A stretch of 25,242 bases of DNA, from IMG/VR virus record IMGVR_UViG_3300022561_001209; one strand, given 5' to 3'. How positions within the stretch are numbered: position 1 is the stretch's first letter; each line of letters opens with the position of its first letter. Below the pieces are notes generated by a model. The model was not told the DNA's origin and made no database searches. It saw only the letters and a program-made list of their open reading frames with translations. This DNA comes from a virus. Taxonomy: Duplodnaviria > Heunggongvirae > Uroviricota > Caudoviricetes. This document shows positions 1,598-22,121 of this stretch, one piece after another. The position numbers were made by a program, and so were the translations under genes.

Positions 1598-1924
1598 TTA
1601 TATCTGATTAGTTTCTATGTAATAGTTACTTATTTCTTCCCGCTCTGCATTTATTACTTTACCGTTTTCTAATTCTATCTCGAAAAATCTTTCTGAATAT
1701 ATTTCTCCATTGGTTTCGTCTATCCACCCTGCACTATACTCATTTCCCAGTGATTCTCTATTTTCATCGTCAAAATGCTCATAAAGTACCTTGAACTTCA
1801 GTCCATTAAATTCTTTAAGTCCACTGTAAGGACTTTGAAAAGTATTTTTCTCCAGTTCATCCATTTGTTCTCTAGTATATGGTTTTACATTCTCTCTTAT
1901 TATTTTCATGTAATCTCTTTCCAT
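1598..1924 (-). CDS. hypothetical protein, ~108 aa
   Basis: ORF track 1598..1942; start moved to the ATG at 1922-1924, which follows GGAGGG. Confidence 0.75.
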   Translation of the reverse strand: MERDYMKIIRENVKPYTREQMDELEKNTFQSPYSGLKEFNGLKFKVLYEHFDDENRESLGNEYSAGWIDETNGEIYSERFFEIELENGKVINAEREEISNYYIETNQI

Positions 1925-1938
1925 TTTATTTCCCTCCA

Positions 1939-2112
1939 TCACTCTTTTGATATCTCTTCATATGAATACTTAACATTAGTTTTTCTTATAATATTTCCAC
2001 TTGCTCCACAATATATACACTTTTCAATATCTGTTTCTTCGTCTACTATAGCGTATTTACCACACCAGTAACAATATATTTCTGTACCTTTAAAAACTAT
2101 GTCTTTACTCAT
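1939..2112 (-). CDS. small Zn-ribbon protein (CxxC-x14-CxxC), ~57 aa
   Basis: CYWC...CIYC; start moved to the ATG at 2110-2112 downstream of GGGGGT. Confidence 0.75.
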   Translation of the reverse strand: MSKDIVFKGTEIYCYWCGKYAIVDEETDIEKCIYCGASGNIIRKTNVKYSYEEISKE

Positions 2113-2199
2113 ATCTCTTACCCCCACATTAAAATTACCATATAACTCTATAAATAAAAGATGTTTAAATATGCTTAATATATCTATCTATCTTACATA

Positions 2200-2238
2200 A
2201 AAATAACCATACAACTTATTCTATTGTATGGTTATTTT
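2200..2238 (-). terminator. intrinsic terminator ending the protein + ncRNA unit
   Basis: perfect 15-bp inverted repeat AAAATAACCATACAA / TTGTATGGTTATTTT, 9-nt loop, T-rich tail on the minus strand. Confidence 0.85.
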
Positions 2239-2281: not shown

Positions 2282-2631
2282 TAACATTGTGAACTATTCA
2301 GCCCAGTACAAACCTAAAGATAATTAGTCTAACTCTTACAAACTTCTTCTAGGATTTTATCGAATTTTTATATTTAAGACTTAAACTTTAATATAAAGAA
2401 TTTTGAACCCTAACTTTTGAACTGTGAATGCTGATGTTTGAACTTTCTCATTAATTAGTCCGTAGCGATAAGCAACCTGTTATCGCTCACGGAATCTAAT
2501 CCCATTTGTAATCGATATATAGATATATCAAAATAAGAAAATCACCAGTTTTCTTGTTCTTAATTTCAGGTTATTACCCCAACCAGAAAGGGGAGACTAA
2601 ATTTAAGATTTTCAAATAACCCACAATGTTA
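2282..2631 (-). ncRNA. putative ~350-nt structured non-coding RNA of unknown family
   Basis: no substantial ORF; 5' TAACATTGTGGGTTATTTG (2613-2631) pairs with 3' TGAATAGTTCACAATGTTA (2282-2300), a 10-bp perfect helix extended by G-U pairs valid only on the minus strand; internal hairpins ATTAG..TCCGT-G-AGCGATAA/TTATCGCT-ACGGA-CTAAT (about 2454-2500), AAGAAAA/TTTTCTT, GATATAT/ATATATC, CCCC/GGGG; lies between a stop codon and a terminator. Confidence 0.7.
2362..2446 (-). repeat. degenerate 7-nt periodic tract (11 heptamers + 1 octamer, consensus about AAANTTY)
   Basis: minus strand reads AAAGTTC AAACATC AGCATTC ACAGTTC AAAAGTT AGGGTTC AAAATTC TTTATATT AAAGTTT AAGTCTT AAATATA AAAATTC. Confidence 0.8.
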
Positions 2632-2643
2632 TTTTTTATTTAA

Positions 2644-2682
2644 TAGGTAGCTCGACTCCTCGTGAACGAGTCGAACAACCTA
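2644..2682 (-). other. GC-rich hairpin between the 212-aa gene stop and the ncRNA closing stem
   Basis: TAGGT-TG-TTCGACTC / GAGTCGAG-CT-ACCTA on the minus strand, 9-nt loop, no U-tract after it. Confidence 0.7.
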
Positions 2683-2696
2683 AGTGTTACCGTAAA

Positions 2697-3335
2697 TTAA
2701 TTTTCAACTACTATAGTGTTTTTAGAATTAGCTTCTGACAGACACATATCAACTTCGTTCTCAAACTCAATTATTTCTGTTCCCATCTTACTAATTACTT
2801 CCGTTAATTTTAGAGGGTCAACAAATACTGTCTTGTTAGCCTCCCAACGTGCTTTAGCCATATCTTCAGACGTTTTAACTAAGTCTTTATTGTTCTTATC
2901 AGAAGATATTAAACTCTCTACTAATTTTTCATTAGCCATATCTAATTGAATATTAGCTGATTCCAAACTAGATGTTGCTCTATTTAAGCTTTTCTTCAGA
3001 ACTTCTAAAAAGTTCTTTTCGTATGATATAGATGTCTTTCTTTCTATAGCATCTGCCACTGTATATGTATTTCCTGCAATTTCTATGTTATTCCCAGCGT
3101 TTGATTTAACTATAGCTGATTTAAGCTCTTTTCTTTGACTAATTAAATCGTTTACTGATTCAAATGCTGCTTTTACTTGTTTCTCATATTCTTCGACAGT
3201 TAAAGTCCCGTTCTGTACTTTATCAGCACTGTTTTTTCTTGTTTCTACGAAGGTTGTTTCTCTCATTGCCTTATTTATTTTATCGTCAAGTAACTTCAAT
3301 GTCTGTAATGCTCTTGTTATAGATATCTCTCTCAT
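2697..3335 (-). CDS. 212-aa alpha-helical/coiled-coil protein, distantly DIP1984/DUF6847-like
   Basis: GGGGA RBS; ITRALxxLKLLDxKI ... AIVKSN ... IAGNTYTVADAIERK ... EVDMCLSEAN parallels the LAEAL...RINxxN...TL.E.I..RD...D..IQ..N pattern I associate with DIP1984-type proteins (from memory). Confidence 0.85.
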   Translation of the reverse strand: MREISITRALQTLKLLDDKINKAMRETTFVETRKNSADKVQNGTLTVEEYEKQVKAAFESVNDLISQRKELKSAIVKSNAGNNIEIAGNTYTVADAIERKTSISYEKNFLEVLKKSLNRATSSLESANIQLDMANEKLVESLISSDKNNKDLVKTSEDMAKARWEANKTVFVDPLKLTEVISKMGTEIIEFENEVDMCLSEANSKNTIVVEN

Positions 3336-3380: not shown

Positions 3381-3409
3381 ATTATAAACTAAAACTTTTA
3401 CTTTGTCAA
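3381..3409 (-). promoter_or_regulatory. consensus sigma-A promoter driving the 212-aa protein + ncRNA
   Basis: TTGACA (3404-3409), 17 nt, TATAAT (3381-3386) on the minus strand; A-tract upstream. Confidence 0.9.
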
Positions 3410-8993: not shown

Positions 8994-10313
8994 TTAGCAA
9001 TGTTTTAATAACTCTTCTTTTGTGTTATCTATTTCCTCGTTTATTACCATTTCAAGTAATCTGTTTAATGTTTCTCCTATTTCTTTACTTGGTTTATATC
9101 CCTTTTTAATTAAATCATCTCCGCTTATTGCTAAACTTTTTAACGTAAAACTTAAATCATCTAATTCTAAATTATCAATCATTTTTTCAATTTCATCTAA
9201 CATATTTAATCTTTCTTCAGGTCCGATTACACCTTGCTGACCTTTTACATCAGCTCTATTTAACTTTAGGAGTTTTCTAAATGTACTCTCACCCAATTTA
9301 TTTATCATTCTTTTTATAAACTTAGTTGTGACTGAAAGTTGAATGTCATGATATTTTATTAATGTTATTATTTCTTCTATTTCTTTATTACTAAATCTAA
9401 GTCTGTTTAATATCTCTTCTGCTAACCCTCTTGAAACTTCAGCGTGTCCGTAAAAATGCCCTATATTTTCCACTGGTTTTTCTGTATAACAATATGGTTT
9501 ACCAACATCATGCAATAATGCTGCTATTTTCAATATTCTATCGTTTTCTGATTCTCTAACTACTTCTATAGTATGTGTCCACACATCATTCTTATGATAA
9601 GGATTGTTTTGCTCAAACCCATCTGATTTTTCCAATTCAGGTATTATTTCGAATATCACATCTTTAAACTCTCTTAATATTCTACTTACCCCTTTACCTG
9701 TAAGTATTTTGCTTATCTCTACACTTATTCTTTCAGCTGACACATTTTTTAATTTGTCTTTAAATGTATGAATAACTTCTGCTGTCTCATTCTCTATTTC
9801 AAAATCTAATACTGAAGCAAATCTCAATGCTCTTAGTATTCTTAAACTGTCTTCACCAAATCTTTCACAAGGACTTCCTACACATCTTATTATGCCTTGT
9901 TCTAAATCTGACTTACCTCCAAATATATCTATTAAGCCATCCTTTTCAGAATAAGCCGTTGAATTAATAGTAAAGTCTCTTCTACTTAAATCCTCCTCTA
10001 TTTTATTCGTAAATATTACTTCATCAGGGTGTCTACCATCTGAATAATCACCATCTATTCTGTATGTAGTTACTTCAAAACCTTCTTCACCTAACATAAC
10101 AGTAATAGTTCCGTGTTTCAATCCTGTTGGTATCACTTTGTATGACTTAAACACTTTCAGCATCTGTTCAGGTAATGCGTTTGTGCATATATCCCAATCT
10201 TTAGGTTCTTTGTTTAACATACTATCTCTGACACATCCACCTACAACGTATCCATCAAATCCTGCCTTATTTAATTCATTTATTATTTTAACTGCGTTCC
10301 CGTTTAGTTTCAT
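8994..10313 (-). CDS. cca: class II CCA tRNA nucleotidyltransferase with HD domain
   Basis: VGGCVRD...DWDICT, EVTTYRID + YSDGRHP loop, RRDFTINS, EDSLRILRALRF, SAERI, HD motifs HKNDVWTHT / LLHDVGKP / FYGHAE / YHD. Confidence 0.95.
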   Translation of the reverse strand: MKLNGNAVKIINELNKAGFDGYVVGGCVRDSMLNKEPKDWDICTNALPEQMLKVFKSYKVIPTGLKHGTITVMLGEEGFEVTTYRIDGDYSDGRHPDEVIFTNKIEEDLSRRDFTINSTAYSEKDGLIDIFGGKSDLEQGIIRCVGSPCERFGEDSLRILRALRFASVLDFEIENETAEVIHTFKDKLKNVSAERISVEISKILTGKGVSRILREFKDVIFEIIPELEKSDGFEQNNPYHKNDVWTHTIEVVRESENDRILKIAALLHDVGKPYCYTEKPVENIGHFYGHAEVSRGLAEEILNRLRFSNKEIEEIITLIKYHDIQLSVTTKFIKRMINKLGESTFRKLLKLNRADVKGQQGVIGPEERLNMLDEIEKMIDNLELDDLSFTLKSLAISGDDLIKKGYKPSKEIGETLNRLLEMVINEEIDNTKEELLKHC

Positions 10314-18442: not shown

Positions 18443-18994
18443 CTATATCTCTATTTTACAGTGTTCAGCTATTCTCTTAGCATCTTTGTAATCATCAGGA
18501 TGTACTAAATATTCATCTAACTTATTATTTCCTCCGAATATCCTTAAAAATCCTGCGCACTGAGTAAATGTCTTTGCTCCCATACCTTTTATCTTCTTTA
18601 ATTCTTCTCTACTTTTGAACCTGCCTACTTCTTCTCTGTAATCTACTATCTTTTGTGCCATACTATTATTTATTCCTGCTACGTATGAAAGTAACTCCAC
18701 AGAAGCTGTATTTAAATTCACCCCTACCTCATTAACTATTGTAGTTGTTACTCTAGTTAATGCTATATTTAGTTTAGTTTGGTTCACATCATGTTGATAT
18801 TGTCCAACACCCAATGATTGAGGATTTATTTTTACATATTCACTCAATGGGTCTAATAATCTTCTTGCTAAACTTACTGAACTTATTAAGTTAATATCTA
18901 AATCTGGAAATTCTTTCTTTGCTGATGGTGTTGCTGAATATTTACTTGCTCCACTCTCATTTACTATTGTGTATTTAATTCCTTGTTTACTCAT
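18443..18994 (-). CDS. miniature Tex-like protein (end of YqgF/RNase H-like domain + HhH domains only)
   Basis: IVNESGASKYS, EFPDLD, SLARRLLDPLSEYVKI.P.SLGVGQYQHDV, VGVNLNTAS, FTQCAGFLRI, VHPDDY match Tex; no Tex_N or S1 domain; own AGGAG RBS. Confidence 0.9.
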   Translation of the reverse strand: MSKQGIKYTIVNESGASKYSATPSAKKEFPDLDINLISSVSLARRLLDPLSEYVKINPQSLGVGQYQHDVNQTKLNIALTRVTTTIVNEVGVNLNTASVELLSYVAGINNSMAQKIVDYREEVGRFKSREELKKIKGMGAKTFTQCAGFLRIFGGNNKLDEYLVHPDDYKDAKRIAEHCKIEI

Positions 18995-20281: not shown

Positions 20282-20554
20282 TTATTTATTATGATTTGTG
20301 TTTTTTGATATTACTTCGAATGCCTTAGTCACTTCAACAAATATTTCCATGTGTTTATGCATCTCTAGTGAACTGTATTCTGCAAATACTTCACCTTTCT
20401 TGGATGTTATATAGTAAGGCTTTAAATTATTAAGTGCCTTTGCCTTAACATCATCTAAACACTTTTCACACGTACACACGTTTTTATACATGCCCCTATT
20501 AATTAAGTCTTCCAATATGATGTCTACACATATCTCCATATAGTTTTTAACCAT
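20282..20554 (-). CDS. comFB: ComFB-family protein (cyclic-dinucleotide-binding family)
   Basis: KNYME..V...L, CTCEKCLDDVKAKALNNLKPYY, KKGEVF, VEVTKAFEVISKN.NH pattern; GAGG RBS. Confidence 0.8.
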   Translation of the reverse strand: MVKNYMEICVDIILEDLINRGMYKNVCTCEKCLDDVKAKALNNLKPYYITSKKGEVFAEYSSLEMHKHMEIFVEVTKAFEVISKNTNHNK

Positions 20555-21635: not shown

Positions 21636-22121
21636 TTATTTCTTGTTTAATATATCTATTGCCTTTATTACATGTTCTTCTCGTAAACCTCTGCTGTTCG
21701 TAGTTTTAACTAAGTTTGTATTCGTAAATTCACACATATCACTGTCATCATCTAATATTATGAATGACTCAACTTCAGGATGTCTCTCTAGCCAATCCCT
21801 AATCTCGTCTCCACGATGTACCCCATGTAATATAGGCGTTGTATCTAATATCTTTAGCCCTACTTTTTCAAGTTCTTCTTTTAATTTTATTATTAGTTCT
21901 CCACCTAATTCTAAGTGTTTATGTGTCCAACCATATCTCCACGAAGATGACACCACTATTTCAGCACCAGTTTTATCTACTATTTCTTTGAATAATTTAA
22001 GTGCTCTTGGTTCTACTTCATCATATAATCCTGCAGACTTCTTACCCGTTCTTTTTAAGTATTCCATCATATCTTCTGTTGAATTTAATACTCCGTCTAC
22101 ATCTAAAAATATTACTTTCAT
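21636..22121 (-). CDS. HAD-superfamily phosphatase, Swiss-Army-knife RNA-repair-associated type (HAD_SAK-like)
   Basis: IFLDVDGVLNS, IVVSSSWR, RGDEIRDWL, FIILDDDSDM motifs. Confidence 0.88.
   Translation of the reverse strand: MKVIFLDVDGVLNSTEDMMEYLKRTGKKSAGLYDEVEPRALKLFKEIVDKTGAEIVVSSSWRYGWTHKHLELGGELIIKLKEELEKVGLKILDTTPILHGVHRGDEIRDWLERHPEVESFIILDDDSDMCEFTNTNLVKTTNSRGLREEHVIKAIDILNKK

What the first reader, a model, noticed from the sequence alone, without database searches (positions are those of the whole stretch)
2362..2446. 12-unit 7-nt periodic tract inside the putative ncRNA
Seen: AAAGTTC AAACATC AGCATTC ACAGTTC AAAAGTT AGGGTTC AAAATTC TTTATATT AAAGTTT AAGTCTT AAATATA AAAATTC. Spacing is kept (one 8-mer) while sequence degenerates, with purines in the first half and pyrimidines in the second. 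A 7-nt period does not fit codon periodicity, and the units are too diverged for recent slippage, which suggests selection on register. Known precedent: TRAP wraps regularly spaced triplet repeats around an oligomeric ring. Inference: each heptamer is a docking site for one subunit of the adjacent helical protein, so the RNA would set oligomer size or act as a ruler or sponge.
Basis: partly seen in the sequence, partly recalled or inferred. Interest (0 to 1): 0.8.

Follow-up and report, generated by a model that had tools for sequence, protein, structure and literature searches.

The report
Heptamer-repeat array in phage RNA
The 7-base repeats are real and form the conserved, probably single-stranded core of an uncatalogued 350-base structured RNA that always follows one helical-protein gene in hundreds of large phages, including phage T5, so they are likely the docking track of an undescribed protein-RNA particle.

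Summary
Observation confirmed. Window 2446-2362 (minus strand) holds 7 heptamers, an 8-nt U-rich linker and 4 more heptamers. All 11 have A at position 1 and U at 6 (consensus AAAGUUY). No other stretch of the window is as 7-periodic.

The tract lies inside a 350-nt RNA (2631-2282) closed by a 17-bp helix, with a pseudoknot upstream and a covarying 3' hairpin domain downstream.

The same RNA, with the array in the same register, follows homologues of the 212-aa protein (phrog_1491, T5.085, a DIP1984/DUF6847-like fold):
- A model of the 3' domain hits once, downstream and on the gene's strand, in 81 of 86 sources, T5 included.
- All 26 periodic loci found by an RNA pattern alone carry the protein gene upstream.
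- No Rfam family matches and I found no paper describing it.
- The tract alone folds no better than shuffled sequence.

Best reading (about 0.45): a single-stranded, fixed-number docking array for copies of the co-encoded protein. Binding is inferred, not shown. Rivals are an RNA-only scaffold, a decoy for a host factor, and DNA heptads.

T5.085 is dispensable in a published laboratory screen, which suggests an accessory role.

This scan found the same pair on two other genomes (e1-5355777, e1-5442857).

The parts
3381..3409 (-). Consensus sigma-70 promoter (TTGACA, 17 nt, TATAAT) in front of the protein gene
   Evidence: 12 of 12 matches. This is a consensus match only; no transcription start was measured.
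2697..3335 (-). 212-aa helical protein P0001 (phrog_1491, homologue of T5.085, DIP1984/DUF6847-like fold), the gene that always precedes the RNA
   Evidence: PHROG match E 1e-57. AF2 pLDDT 91.7. Best fold match is 3KDQ, Foldseek probability 0.97 and VIA Z 10.1. 746 phage records hold a homologue.
2650..2676 (-). G+C-rich hairpin between the stop codon and the RNA. It has no U-run and may be an mRNA 3' end or a processing element.
   Evidence: MFE fold and sequence. Its function is inferred.
2282..2631 (-). The whole structured non-coding RNA, 350 nt, from the P1 5' strand to the P1 3' strand
   Evidence: The intergenic region folds with z = -5.9. Homologous RNAs of 264-464 nt occur in other phages.
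2615..2631 (-). P1 5' strand, UAACAUUGUGGGUUAUU
   Evidence: It pairs with 2282-2298. Across 29 distinct P1 helices the 10 junction-proximal pairs are 99.7% paired, with all pair types, against 48.5% when partners are shuffled.
2608..2614 (-). Conserved junction strand UGAAAAU (family consensus YGAAAAY) directly after P1
   Evidence: CGAAA or UGAAA in 22 of 29 distinct sequences.
2564..2593 (-). H-type pseudoknot: CCCC (2593-2590), loop strand UUUCUGGUU (2589-2581), GGGG (2580-2577), UAAU, then AACCUGAAA (2572-2564), which is complementary to the loop strand with one U-U mismatch
   Evidence: Read by eye in the window. The same layout, with different but complementary strands, appears in about 18 of 29 lineages. 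The script's per-sequence score exceeds the shuffled 95th percentile in only 31% of sequences, so the support is comparative.
2460..2560 (-). Variable hairpin region, including hairpin 2492-2460 (CCGUGAGCGAUA...UAUCGCUACGG). Its length and sequence are not conserved between lineages.
2398..2446 (-). First heptamer block, 7 units: AAAGUUC AAACAUC AGCAUUC ACAGUUC AAAAGUU AGGGUUC AAAAUUC
   Evidence: Seven-unit first blocks also occur in L003, L266, L268, L282, L300 and L305.
2390..2397 (-). U-rich 8-nt linker UUUAUAUU, which breaks the phase by one base. It can form a minimal CUUU/AAAG hairpin with the flanking units.
   Evidence: the anchored stack of 61 sequences shows a U-rich linker at the same distance from the 3' anchor.
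2362..2389 (-). Second heptamer block, 4 units: AAAGUUU AAGUCUU AAAUAUA AAAAUUC
   Evidence: four A-rich peaks 7 nt apart, in fixed register to the anchor, in 61 distinct sequences.
2299..2365 (-). Conserved anchor (UCGAUAAAAUCC) and 3' hairpin domain closed by CCUAG/CUGGG, ending in GGCUG directly before the P1 3' strand
   Evidence: Covariance model R1 scores 55.4 bits, E 2.4e-12. The helix is 98.7% paired in 63 distinct sequences, with 93 double-change cells against 27 +/- 3.4 in shuffles, 0 of 500 as high.
2282..2298 (-). P1 3' strand, AAUAGUUCACAAUGUUA
2199..2238 (-). Intrinsic terminator (about a 16-bp stem, then a U-run) that ends the unit
   Evidence: MFE fold and sequence. The simple terminator scan missed it because the stem is A+U-rich.

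Best explanation
The tract is the heptad-repeat module of a widespread phage non-coding RNA family that no catalogue holds. The RNA is made from the 3' side of the gene for a 212-aa helical protein (phrog_1491, T5.085). It is closed by a long helix, P1. It carries a pseudoknot and variable hairpins, then the array, then a conserved anchor and a 3' hairpin domain. In the window and in the best-preserved lineages the array is 7 units, a U-rich linker, then 4 units, with consensus AAAGUUY. A1, A2 and U6 are nearly invariant. The array sits at a fixed register to the anchor (UCGAUAAAAUCC). The most likely mechanism is inferred, not shown: the structured parts hold the array out as a single strand of defined length, and each heptamer is one binding site for a copy, or one surface, of the co-encoded protein. 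That would give a ribonucleoprotein of fixed stoichiometry, about 11 sites in two blocks. The particle's target is unknown. It is probably an accessory, host-directed function tied to phage tRNA and RNA biology.
For: Shown here.
(1) The periodicity is real and unique in the window.
(2) The RNA is real. P1 is 99.7% paired over 29 distinct sequences with every pair type. The 3' helix is 98.7% paired, with 93 compensatory cells against 27 in shuffles. A pseudoknot with lineage-specific complementary strands recurs.
(3) The array is conserved in place, strand, phase and number. It is the top periodic window in about 60 of 80 loci. Spacings are multiples of 7. An ungapped stack of 61 sequences anchored at the 3' domain keeps the pattern of 4 units, linker and further units. 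A1 and U6 persist in G+C-rich phages such as L303 and L306.
(4) The tract has no selected self-structure: mean folding z is 0.00 and 0 of 29 fall below -2, while the whole gap folds at z = -5.9.
(5) The gene and the RNA are linked both ways. Model R1 hits once, downstream and on the same strand, in 81 of 86 sources. It also hits in T5, Vibrio phage Brizo and Cronobacter phage GAP31. All 26 periodic loci found by an RNA pattern alone have the gene upstream, while 66 chance matches have neither.
(6) The stop codon lies 6-65 nt from P1 in many loci, which leaves no room for a separate promoter.
From established knowledge (my own): TRAP and HutP read regularly spaced short motifs on single-stranded RNA with one site per subunit, and HutP sites are 7 nt apart.
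Against: No binding data exist and no RNA-protein fold was possible. Thermodynamic folding of the full RNA gives the tract about the same pairing probability as the rest, 0.59 against 0.63. Single-strandedness therefore rests on the lack of excess stability and the lack of complementary arrays, not on probing. The protein's conserved residues cluster in the small beta-sheet 'head' and include several acidic ones, which would also fit an enzyme or a single specific site. In Bacillus phage KLEB27-3 three small genes separate the protein gene from the RNA. Some lineages carry weaker arrays: Pseudomonas KIL1 and the T5 group have contrast about 0.15.
Confidence: 0.45

Rival explanations
1. An RNA-only architecture. 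The A-rich heptamers make repeated tertiary or quaternary RNA-RNA contacts, such as A-minor or ribose-zipper contacts, or multimerisation as in the ROOL and GOLLD cages. The protein would then be a chaperone, a processing or modifying factor, or a functionally separate product of the same operon.
For: The RNA is large and ornate, and it sits in phage tRNA and ncRNA clusters beside tRNAs, drum, skipping-rope and tmRNA-like RNAs. That neighbourhood is typical of ROOL and GOLLD, which form RNA-only multimers (10.1101/2024.12.08.627333, abstract seen). The fixed register of the array to the 3' domain would suit a defined 3D fold. Conserved acidic residues in the protein head are not typical of a simple RNA binder.
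Against: The two-way gene-RNA linkage is much tighter than is known for ROOL or GOLLD. No partner sequence complementary to the units is present in the RNA, by inspection. The tract has no excess folding stability.
Confidence: 0.2
2. A decoy or sponge for a host factor or a defence nuclease. The repeated single-stranded words, UYAA every 7 nt (GUUCAAA resembles a tRNA T-loop word and AG/UUY an RNase E-type site), would titrate or misdirect a host RNA-binding protein or a tRNA-targeting immune nuclease. The co-encoded protein would stabilise or deliver the decoy.
For: The unit sits in or near phage tRNA clusters. The window also encodes a CCA-adding enzyme and RNA-repair domains. T5.085 is 'Not Fit', that is dispensable, in a genome-wide knock-down screen in a laboratory E. 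coli (PMC11879866, supplementary files 8 and 16), as expected for a counter-defence or accessory function. Phage tRNA regions are known to hold anti-defence genes (10.1101/2023.03.15.532788).
Against: The family spans phages of Gram-negative and Gram-positive hosts: Escherichia, Salmonella, Pseudomonas, Vibrio, Bacillus, Clostridium and Lactococcus. A host target would have to be nearly universal. The positions that define a T-loop, U54 and C56, fall on the least conserved unit positions 5 and 7. No experimental link exists.
Confidence: 0.2
3. A DNA-level element. The heptads would be binding sites on double-stranded DNA for a repressor, partition or replication protein, like the 7-bp heptad arrays bound by the omega repressor of pSM19035.
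For: Contiguous 7-bp direct repeats are a known operator and centromere format (my own knowledge). The lag-21 signal, two helical turns, is the strongest in the window. Phage D-1873, which carries the element, is a plasmid-like prophage (from memory).
Against: The array is always on the transcribed strand of the upstream gene and lies inside an RNA delimited by covarying helices, at a fixed register to them. It occurs in strictly lytic phages such as T5. It often sits inside tRNA operons a few bases from tRNA genes. The purine-first, pyrimidine-last asymmetry is kept.
Confidence: 0.05
4. No function: a low-complexity A+T-rich stretch or a decayed slippage product.
For: The window is 28% G+C and Tandem Repeats Finder does not score the tract.
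Against: No other window of the sequence is as periodic. The same array recurs in the same place in phages with 30-45% protein identity and in G+C-rich phages.
Confidence: 0.01

Closest known systems
HutP with the hut leader RNA of Bacillus subtilis
   Same: Short motifs are repeated with a 7-nt period (UAG plus a 4-nt spacer) in two blocks separated by a linker.
   Different: HutP has 3+3 sites, while here there are about 7+4. The motif differs (A1, A2 and U6 of AAAGUUY). The protein is unrelated, with no Pfam hit at E <= 10. The hut RNA is a cis-acting antiterminator upstream of genes. This array is embedded in a closed 350-nt RNA downstream of its protein gene.
TRAP with the trp leader
   Same: Eleven regularly spaced repeats wrap an 11-subunit ring (my own knowledge). 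The array here also has about 11 units in many lineages.
   Different: TRAP reads (G/U)AG triplets 5-6 nt apart, whereas this period is 7. The protein here is an elongated helical DIP1984-like fold, not a beta-sandwich ring. No ring or oligomer could be shown here.
Translational operator of T4 gene 32
   Same: A pseudoknot is followed by an unstructured A/U-rich stretch with repeated short words. It is coated cooperatively by a protein whose site size is about 7 nt (my own knowledge).
   Different: That operator lies upstream of, and regulates, the gene of the binding protein. This element is downstream, closed by P1 and followed by its own 3' domain. The protein is not an OB-fold single-strand binder.
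ROOL, GOLLD, drum and skipping-rope RNAs (orphan structured RNAs of phage tRNA regions)
   Same: The genomic neighbourhood is the same: large phages and prophages, next to tRNA genes. drum and skipping-rope RNAs lie in the same loci. The function of these RNAs is also unknown.
   Different: There is no sequence or structure match to any Rfam 15 family. None of those RNAs has a heptad array or an obligatory partner gene, to my knowledge.
Omega repressor heptad arrays of inc18 plasmids (DNA)
   Same: Seven to ten contiguous 7-bp repeats, each bound by one protein dimer (my own knowledge).
   Different: Those are double-stranded DNA operators at promoters with the motif WATCACW. This array is strand-fixed inside a covarying RNA structure.
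DIP1984 / DUF6847 ('septicolysin') proteins, PDB 3KDQ
   Same: It is the best structural match of the partner protein, covering nearly the whole 152-residue chain (Z 10.1, rmsd 6.5 A, 151 residues aligned; Foldseek probability 0.97). Atlas neighbours carry PF20935.
   Different: The phage proteins are about 60 residues longer, with an extended helical hairpin. No Pfam HMM match was found. DIP1984 itself has no known function, and the papers found use 'septicolysin' only as an annotation label.

Membership tests
Any Rfam 15 RNA family (including ROOL, GOLLD, drum, skipping-rope, RAGATH-27) | Covariance-model match at or near the family's gathering score | tested here: not met
   Window: 0 hits at gathering score, and only chance-level hits at E <= 5 on 2050-2750. 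In 18 related loci only tRNA, drum, skipping-rope and tmRNA were found, all elsewhere in the loci. In 8 loci at E <= 1 nothing overlaps the RNA.
HutP / hut RNA | UAG (NAG) triplets with 4-nt spacers, in 3+3 sites | tested here: not met
   The 7-nt period is shared, but the conserved unit positions are A1, A2 and U6 of AAAGUUY, arranged in about 7+4 units.
HutP / hut RNA | A HutP-family protein encoded with the RNA | tested here: not met
   No Pfam family at E <= 10 other than noise. The fold is a helical hairpin bundle.
TRAP / trp leader | About 11 (G/U)AG repeats separated by 2-3 nt, with a TRAP (MtrB) protein | tested here: not met
   The period is 7, not 5-6, and there is no GAG/UAG core. 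The protein is not TRAP.
Omega/ParG-type DNA heptad operators | Contiguous 7-bp repeats on duplex DNA at a promoter or centromere, bound by a ribbon-helix-helix dimer | tested here: inconclusive
   The period fits. But the array is strand-fixed, lies inside covarying RNA helices and tRNA operons, and has a different motif. I did not search systematically for a ribbon-helix-helix partner gene.
Type III toxin-antitoxin RNA (ToxI-like) | Near-identical tandem repeats of about 34-40 nt upstream of an endoribonuclease toxin gene | tested here: not met
   The units are 7 nt, degenerate and downstream of the gene. The protein has no nuclease family match.
DIP1984 / DUF6847 (partner protein) | Pfam PF20935 profile match | tested here: not met
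   hmmscan at E <= 10 does not list PF20935 for P0001 or two homologues.
DIP1984 / DUF6847 (partner protein) | Same fold as the solved member 3KDQ | tested here: met
   It is the top hit in both searches: Foldseek E 0.018 and probability 0.97, VIA-align Z 10.1 over 151 of 152 residues. Note that helical proteins give middling Z scores easily. An Atlas structural neighbour carries PF20935.
The heptad-repeat phage RNA family itself (defined here) | P1 flanked by YGAAAAY and GGCUG, a heptamer array, a UCGAUAAAAUCC anchor, a covarying 3' hairpin, and a position downstream of a phrog_1491 gene | tested here: met
   The window has all of these features. R1 scores 55.4 bits.

The most novel reading that the evidence does not exclude
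The RNA and the T5.085-family protein form a previously unknown kind of phage ribonucleoprotein. A scaffolded single strand of exactly spaced heptads (7+4) would act as a molecular ruler, setting the copy number and geometry of an elongated helical protein. The resulting particle would act on host tRNA or RNA metabolism, or on an RNA- or tRNA-directed immune system. It would be present in T5 and in hundreds of other large phages of both Gram-negative and Gram-positive bacteria.
Probability: 0.35. Interest if true: 0.9.

Novelty: categorically new. Interest (0 to 1): 0.8.

Why it matters
A conserved 350-nt structured RNA with an obligatory partner protein has gone unannotated in one of the oldest model phages. 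In T5 it lies in the gap after T5.085, about nt 43140-43496. It is also unannotated in at least 440 T5-like genomes, and the protein has homologues in 746 phage records (the RNA was checked in a sample of them) across Escherichia, Salmonella, Pseudomonas, Vibrio, Bacillus, Clostridium and Lactococcus phages.

The heptad array is a rare case in which spacing and number, rather than sequence, are visibly under selection. That gives a directly testable hypothesis of stoichiometric protein loading.

Because T5 and its host are genetically tractable and the gene is dispensable in the laboratory, function can be tested at once. Possible roles include counter-defence, tRNA handling and RNA decoy.

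It also corrects a propagated mis-annotation as 'tail fiber protein'.

Tried and rejected
- **Homo-oligomer prediction** of the protein (4 copies): no verdict (score 0.40 against a mark of 0.42). It counts neither for nor against.
- **RNA-seq and RIP-seq contigs** from T5-type infections: long contigs of 4-14 kb cover the gene and the RNA, so they show presence in RNA libraries but give no ends, strand or abundance. The RIP-seq runs most likely come from the DRT9 reverse-transcriptase study (PMC11974808, which reports RIP-seq during T5 infection; inferred, since run and study names are coded) and are not about this protein.
- **Direct search of viral contigs with P0001 alone** and blastn of the region against phages: nothing found. 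The relatives are too distant at DNA level.
- **Rad anti-retron protein of T5-like phages:** a different protein of 189 aa with a TOPRIM-like domain.
- **T-loop mimicry of GUUCAAA:** rejected as the main reading, because the T-loop-defining positions are the least conserved in the unit.
- **Small-peptide coding in the tract:** there is no start codon, and a 7-nt period is incompatible with a conserved reading frame.
- **Thermodynamic pairing probabilities of the tract within the full RNA**: not discriminating, 0.59 against 0.63.
- **Sequence searches for the protein** (Pfam, NCBIfam, PDB): no family.
- **Literature searches**: no description of this RNA was found. That is not proof that none exists.

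Full report
**The observation**

- Base identity at lags 7, 14, 21 and 28 is 0.50, 0.52, 0.56 and 0.47, against about 0.31 in shuffles.
- No other 85-nt window of the 25-kb sequence reaches 0.5 at lag 7.
- A contrast score (lags 7/14/21 minus off-phase lags) ranks this stretch first, 0.32 against 0.19 for the runner-up.
- Tandem Repeats Finder does not report it, so the units are degenerate.

Parsed in phase, the tract is seven heptamers (2446-2398), an 8-nt linker UUUAUAUU (2397-2390) and four heptamers (2389-2362). All eleven have A at position 1 and U at position 6.

**Context in the window**

All genes run on the minus strand. The unit reads as follows:
- A perfect TTGACA-17-TATAAT promoter at 3409-3381.
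- A 212-aa gene at 3335-2697 (P0001).
- A 569-nt gap without ORFs, ending in a terminator at 2238-2199.
- The next gene, at 2127.

The gap folds far better than shuffles, z = -5.9. It contains no tRNA and no Rfam family. P0001 matches PHROG 1491, labelled 'tail fiber', at E 1e-57. It has no Pfam, NCBIfam or PDB sequence match.

**Homologous loci**

tblastn finds the protein in 746 phage records. These include T5-like phages and phages of Pseudomonas, Vibrio, Bacillus, Clostridium, Lactococcus and Erwinia, as well as rV5-like phages.

In Clostridium phage D-1873 and Bacillus phage KLEB27-3 an unannotated gap near the homologue contains the most 7-periodic stretch of the locus.

A protein-profile scan of viral contigs returned 80 loci. 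In about 60 of them the single most 7-periodic 84-nt window of the 7.6-kb locus lies 120-280 nt after the stop codon, on the gene's strand, with units of the form AAAGNUY. G+C-rich phages keep A1 and U6, for example AACGGUC and AGGACUC.

Scored units are spaced 7 nt apart 75 times, 14 nt 17 times, 21 nt 20 times and 28 nt 5 times. A 15-17-nt step marks the linker.

Stacking 61 distinct sequences without gaps, anchored on the invariant CC of the 3' domain, still shows four A-rich peaks 7 nt apart, a U-rich linker, and further peaks upstream. Position, phase and number are therefore conserved while the sequence drifts.

**The RNA around the tract**

Downstream of the array every lineage has UCGAUAAAAUCC. 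A hairpin of about 52 nt follows, whose closing pairs covary (UAG/CUG, AAG/CUU, AUG/CAU, GCA/UGC, GAG/CUC, ACG/CGU). Then comes GGCUG.

A covariance model of this domain, R1, hits exactly once, downstream of the gene and on its strand, in 81 of 86 sources. It also hits in T5 itself, Vibrio phage Brizo and Cronobacter phage GAP31. On the resulting alignment 98.7% of cells pair. There are 93 double-change cells against 27 +/- 3.4 in shuffles (0 of 500 as high), and sliding the partners by one column collapses the signal.

Directly after GGCUG starts the 3' strand of a long helix, P1. Its 5' strand ends directly before a conserved YGAAAAY. In 29 distinct sequences the ten junction-proximal pairs are 99.7% paired with every pair type, against 48.5% with shuffled partners. 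Choosing the best helix adds some circularity. Its exact abutment to both conserved motifs was not imposed at the 5' side.

After the junction about 18 of 29 lineages show an H-type pseudoknot: a CCC/GGG stem whose loop pairs with the strand that follows UAAU. The window has CCCC-UUUCUGGUU-GGGG-UAAU-AACCUGAAA.

The RNA is 264-464 nt long, and 350 nt in the window (2631-2282). tRNA genes often begin 10-60 nt after P1. The stop codon lies only 6-65 nt before P1. The RNA is therefore most likely cut out of the gene's transcript, which is an inference.

**Is the tract paired?**

The 105 nt upstream of the anchor fold no better than shuffles: mean z is 0.00 and 0 of 29 fall below -2. The direct-repeat units have no complementary partner array, by inspection.

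Full-length partition functions are not discriminating, 0.59 against 0.63 paired. Only a minimal hairpin across the linker (CUUU...AAAG, UUC...GAA) recurs.

I conclude that the tract is probably single-stranded or engaged in non-Watson-Crick or protein contacts. This needs chemical probing.

**Linkage with the protein**

Going from gene to RNA, R1 hits in 76 of the 80 protein-anchored loci, and the others have at least a periodic tract.

Going from RNA to gene, I scanned for TCGAUAAAAUCC-N45-60-GGCUG and looked at the 101 loci with enough upstream sequence:
- 26 have a periodic tract, and all 26 have the protein gene upstream.
- 9 more have the gene, with an inserted hairpin that displaces the tract.
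- 66 have neither a tract nor the gene. These are chance matches to the pattern.

**The protein**

AlphaFold2 on 58 homologues gives pLDDT 91.7. The model is a small beta-sheet 'head' formed by the termini and a central hairpin, plus long helical hairpins.

The best structural match in two independent searches is 3KDQ, an uncharacterised Corynebacterium diphtheriae protein (Foldseek probability 0.97, VIA Z 10.1). Atlas neighbours carry DUF6847, labelled 'septicolysin'. No function is known for that family.

In T5 the gene is T5.085. A published dCas13d knock-down screen scores it 'Not Fit', meaning dispensable in a laboratory host (PMC11879866, supplementary files 8 and 16). That argues against a structural tail-fibre role and for an accessory one. 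The T5 gap (about 43140-43496) and the equivalent gaps of 440 T5-like records are unannotated.

**Interpretation**

Shown: a real, strongly conserved RNA family not found in Rfam, with a register-conserved heptad array and an obligatory upstream protein gene.

Inferred: the array is a single-stranded multivalent track for the co-encoded protein. This works like HutP or TRAP on their RNAs, and recalls the pseudoknot plus unstructured repeat operator of T4 gene 32. It is a member of none of these families, since the motif, the protein and the placement all differ.

Rivals:
- An RNA-only scaffold or multimer of the ROOL/GOLLD type.
- A decoy for a host factor or a tRNA-directed nuclease.
- DNA heptads. 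This is unlikely, because the array is strand-fixed inside covarying RNA helices and tRNA operons.
- Chance. This is refuted.

**Novelty**

No Rfam 15 family matches in the window or in 18 related loci. Seven literature searches found no description. The large survey of phage structured-RNA candidates (PMC10690425) does not mention such an RNA in its main text.

Two earlier follow-up reports of this scan, on other genomes, reached the same reading (e1-5355777 and e1-5442857). This report is therefore a further instance of that family, not its first sighting in the scan.

I rate the tract as a genuine and interesting feature, interest 0.8. Its mechanism is still open.

Noticed in passing
L001:5407-5514 (Clostridium phage D-1873, ACSJ01000017.1): A drum RNA (RF02958, 47.7 bits) lies in the same 1.2-kb unannotated gap as the heptad-repeat RNA. 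More structured-looking, unassigned sequence lies between them (about L001 4970-5400).
   Followed up: no
L003:6421-6605: Two skipping-rope RNAs (RF02924) lie directly upstream of the protein gene and three tRNAs lie directly downstream of the RNA. The unit sits inside a dense ncRNA cluster.
   Followed up: no
L328:1-247 (Lactococcus phage AM4): A partial tmRNA match (RF00023, 50.7 bits, cut at the locus end) lies about 2 kb upstream of the protein gene in a lytic lactococcal phage.
   Followed up: no
L329:849-1567 (phage T5, nt 40848-41566): The T5 record annotates a 719-nt 'RNAX, stable RNA with unknown functions' next to tRNA-Arg, about 1.6 kb from the heptad RNA. It is a different RNA and is also unexplained.
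   Followed up: no
window 2650-2676 (-): A strong G+C-rich hairpin without a U-run sits between the stop codon and P1. It may be an mRNA-stabilising or processing element that separates the mRNA from the ncRNA.
   Followed up: no
window 1939-2127 (-) and 1598-1942 (-): The genes after the terminator are a 62-aa CxxC...CxxC zinc-ribbon protein and a 114-aa protein without any family. An SLT lytic transglycosylase follows at 811-1575.
   Followed up: partly
window 8994-10313, 21636-22121, 18443-18994, 20282-20554 (-): The window also encodes a CCA-adding enzyme with an HD domain, a HAD_SAK_2 'Swiss Army Knife' RNA-repair phosphatase domain, a Tex-like YqgF/HHH fragment and a ComFB protein. This phage invests heavily in RNA and tRNA handling, although it has no tRNA gene in these 25 kb.
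   Followed up: partly
L300, L305, L307, L320, L324, L325, L334 and related loci: One lineage has an extra G+C-rich hairpin (GAGGGC...GCCC) inserted between the second heptamer block and the anchor, and the anchor reads ACAAAGUUUUACAAAAUCC. This is a natural insertion variant that would be useful for testing spacing requirements.
   Followed up: partly
L274, L276, L278, L283, L330 (Pseudomonas KIL1 group): These loci keep a shorter heptamer tract after the gene but are missed by the 3' domain model. They look like a divergent subfamily of the RNA.
   Followed up: no
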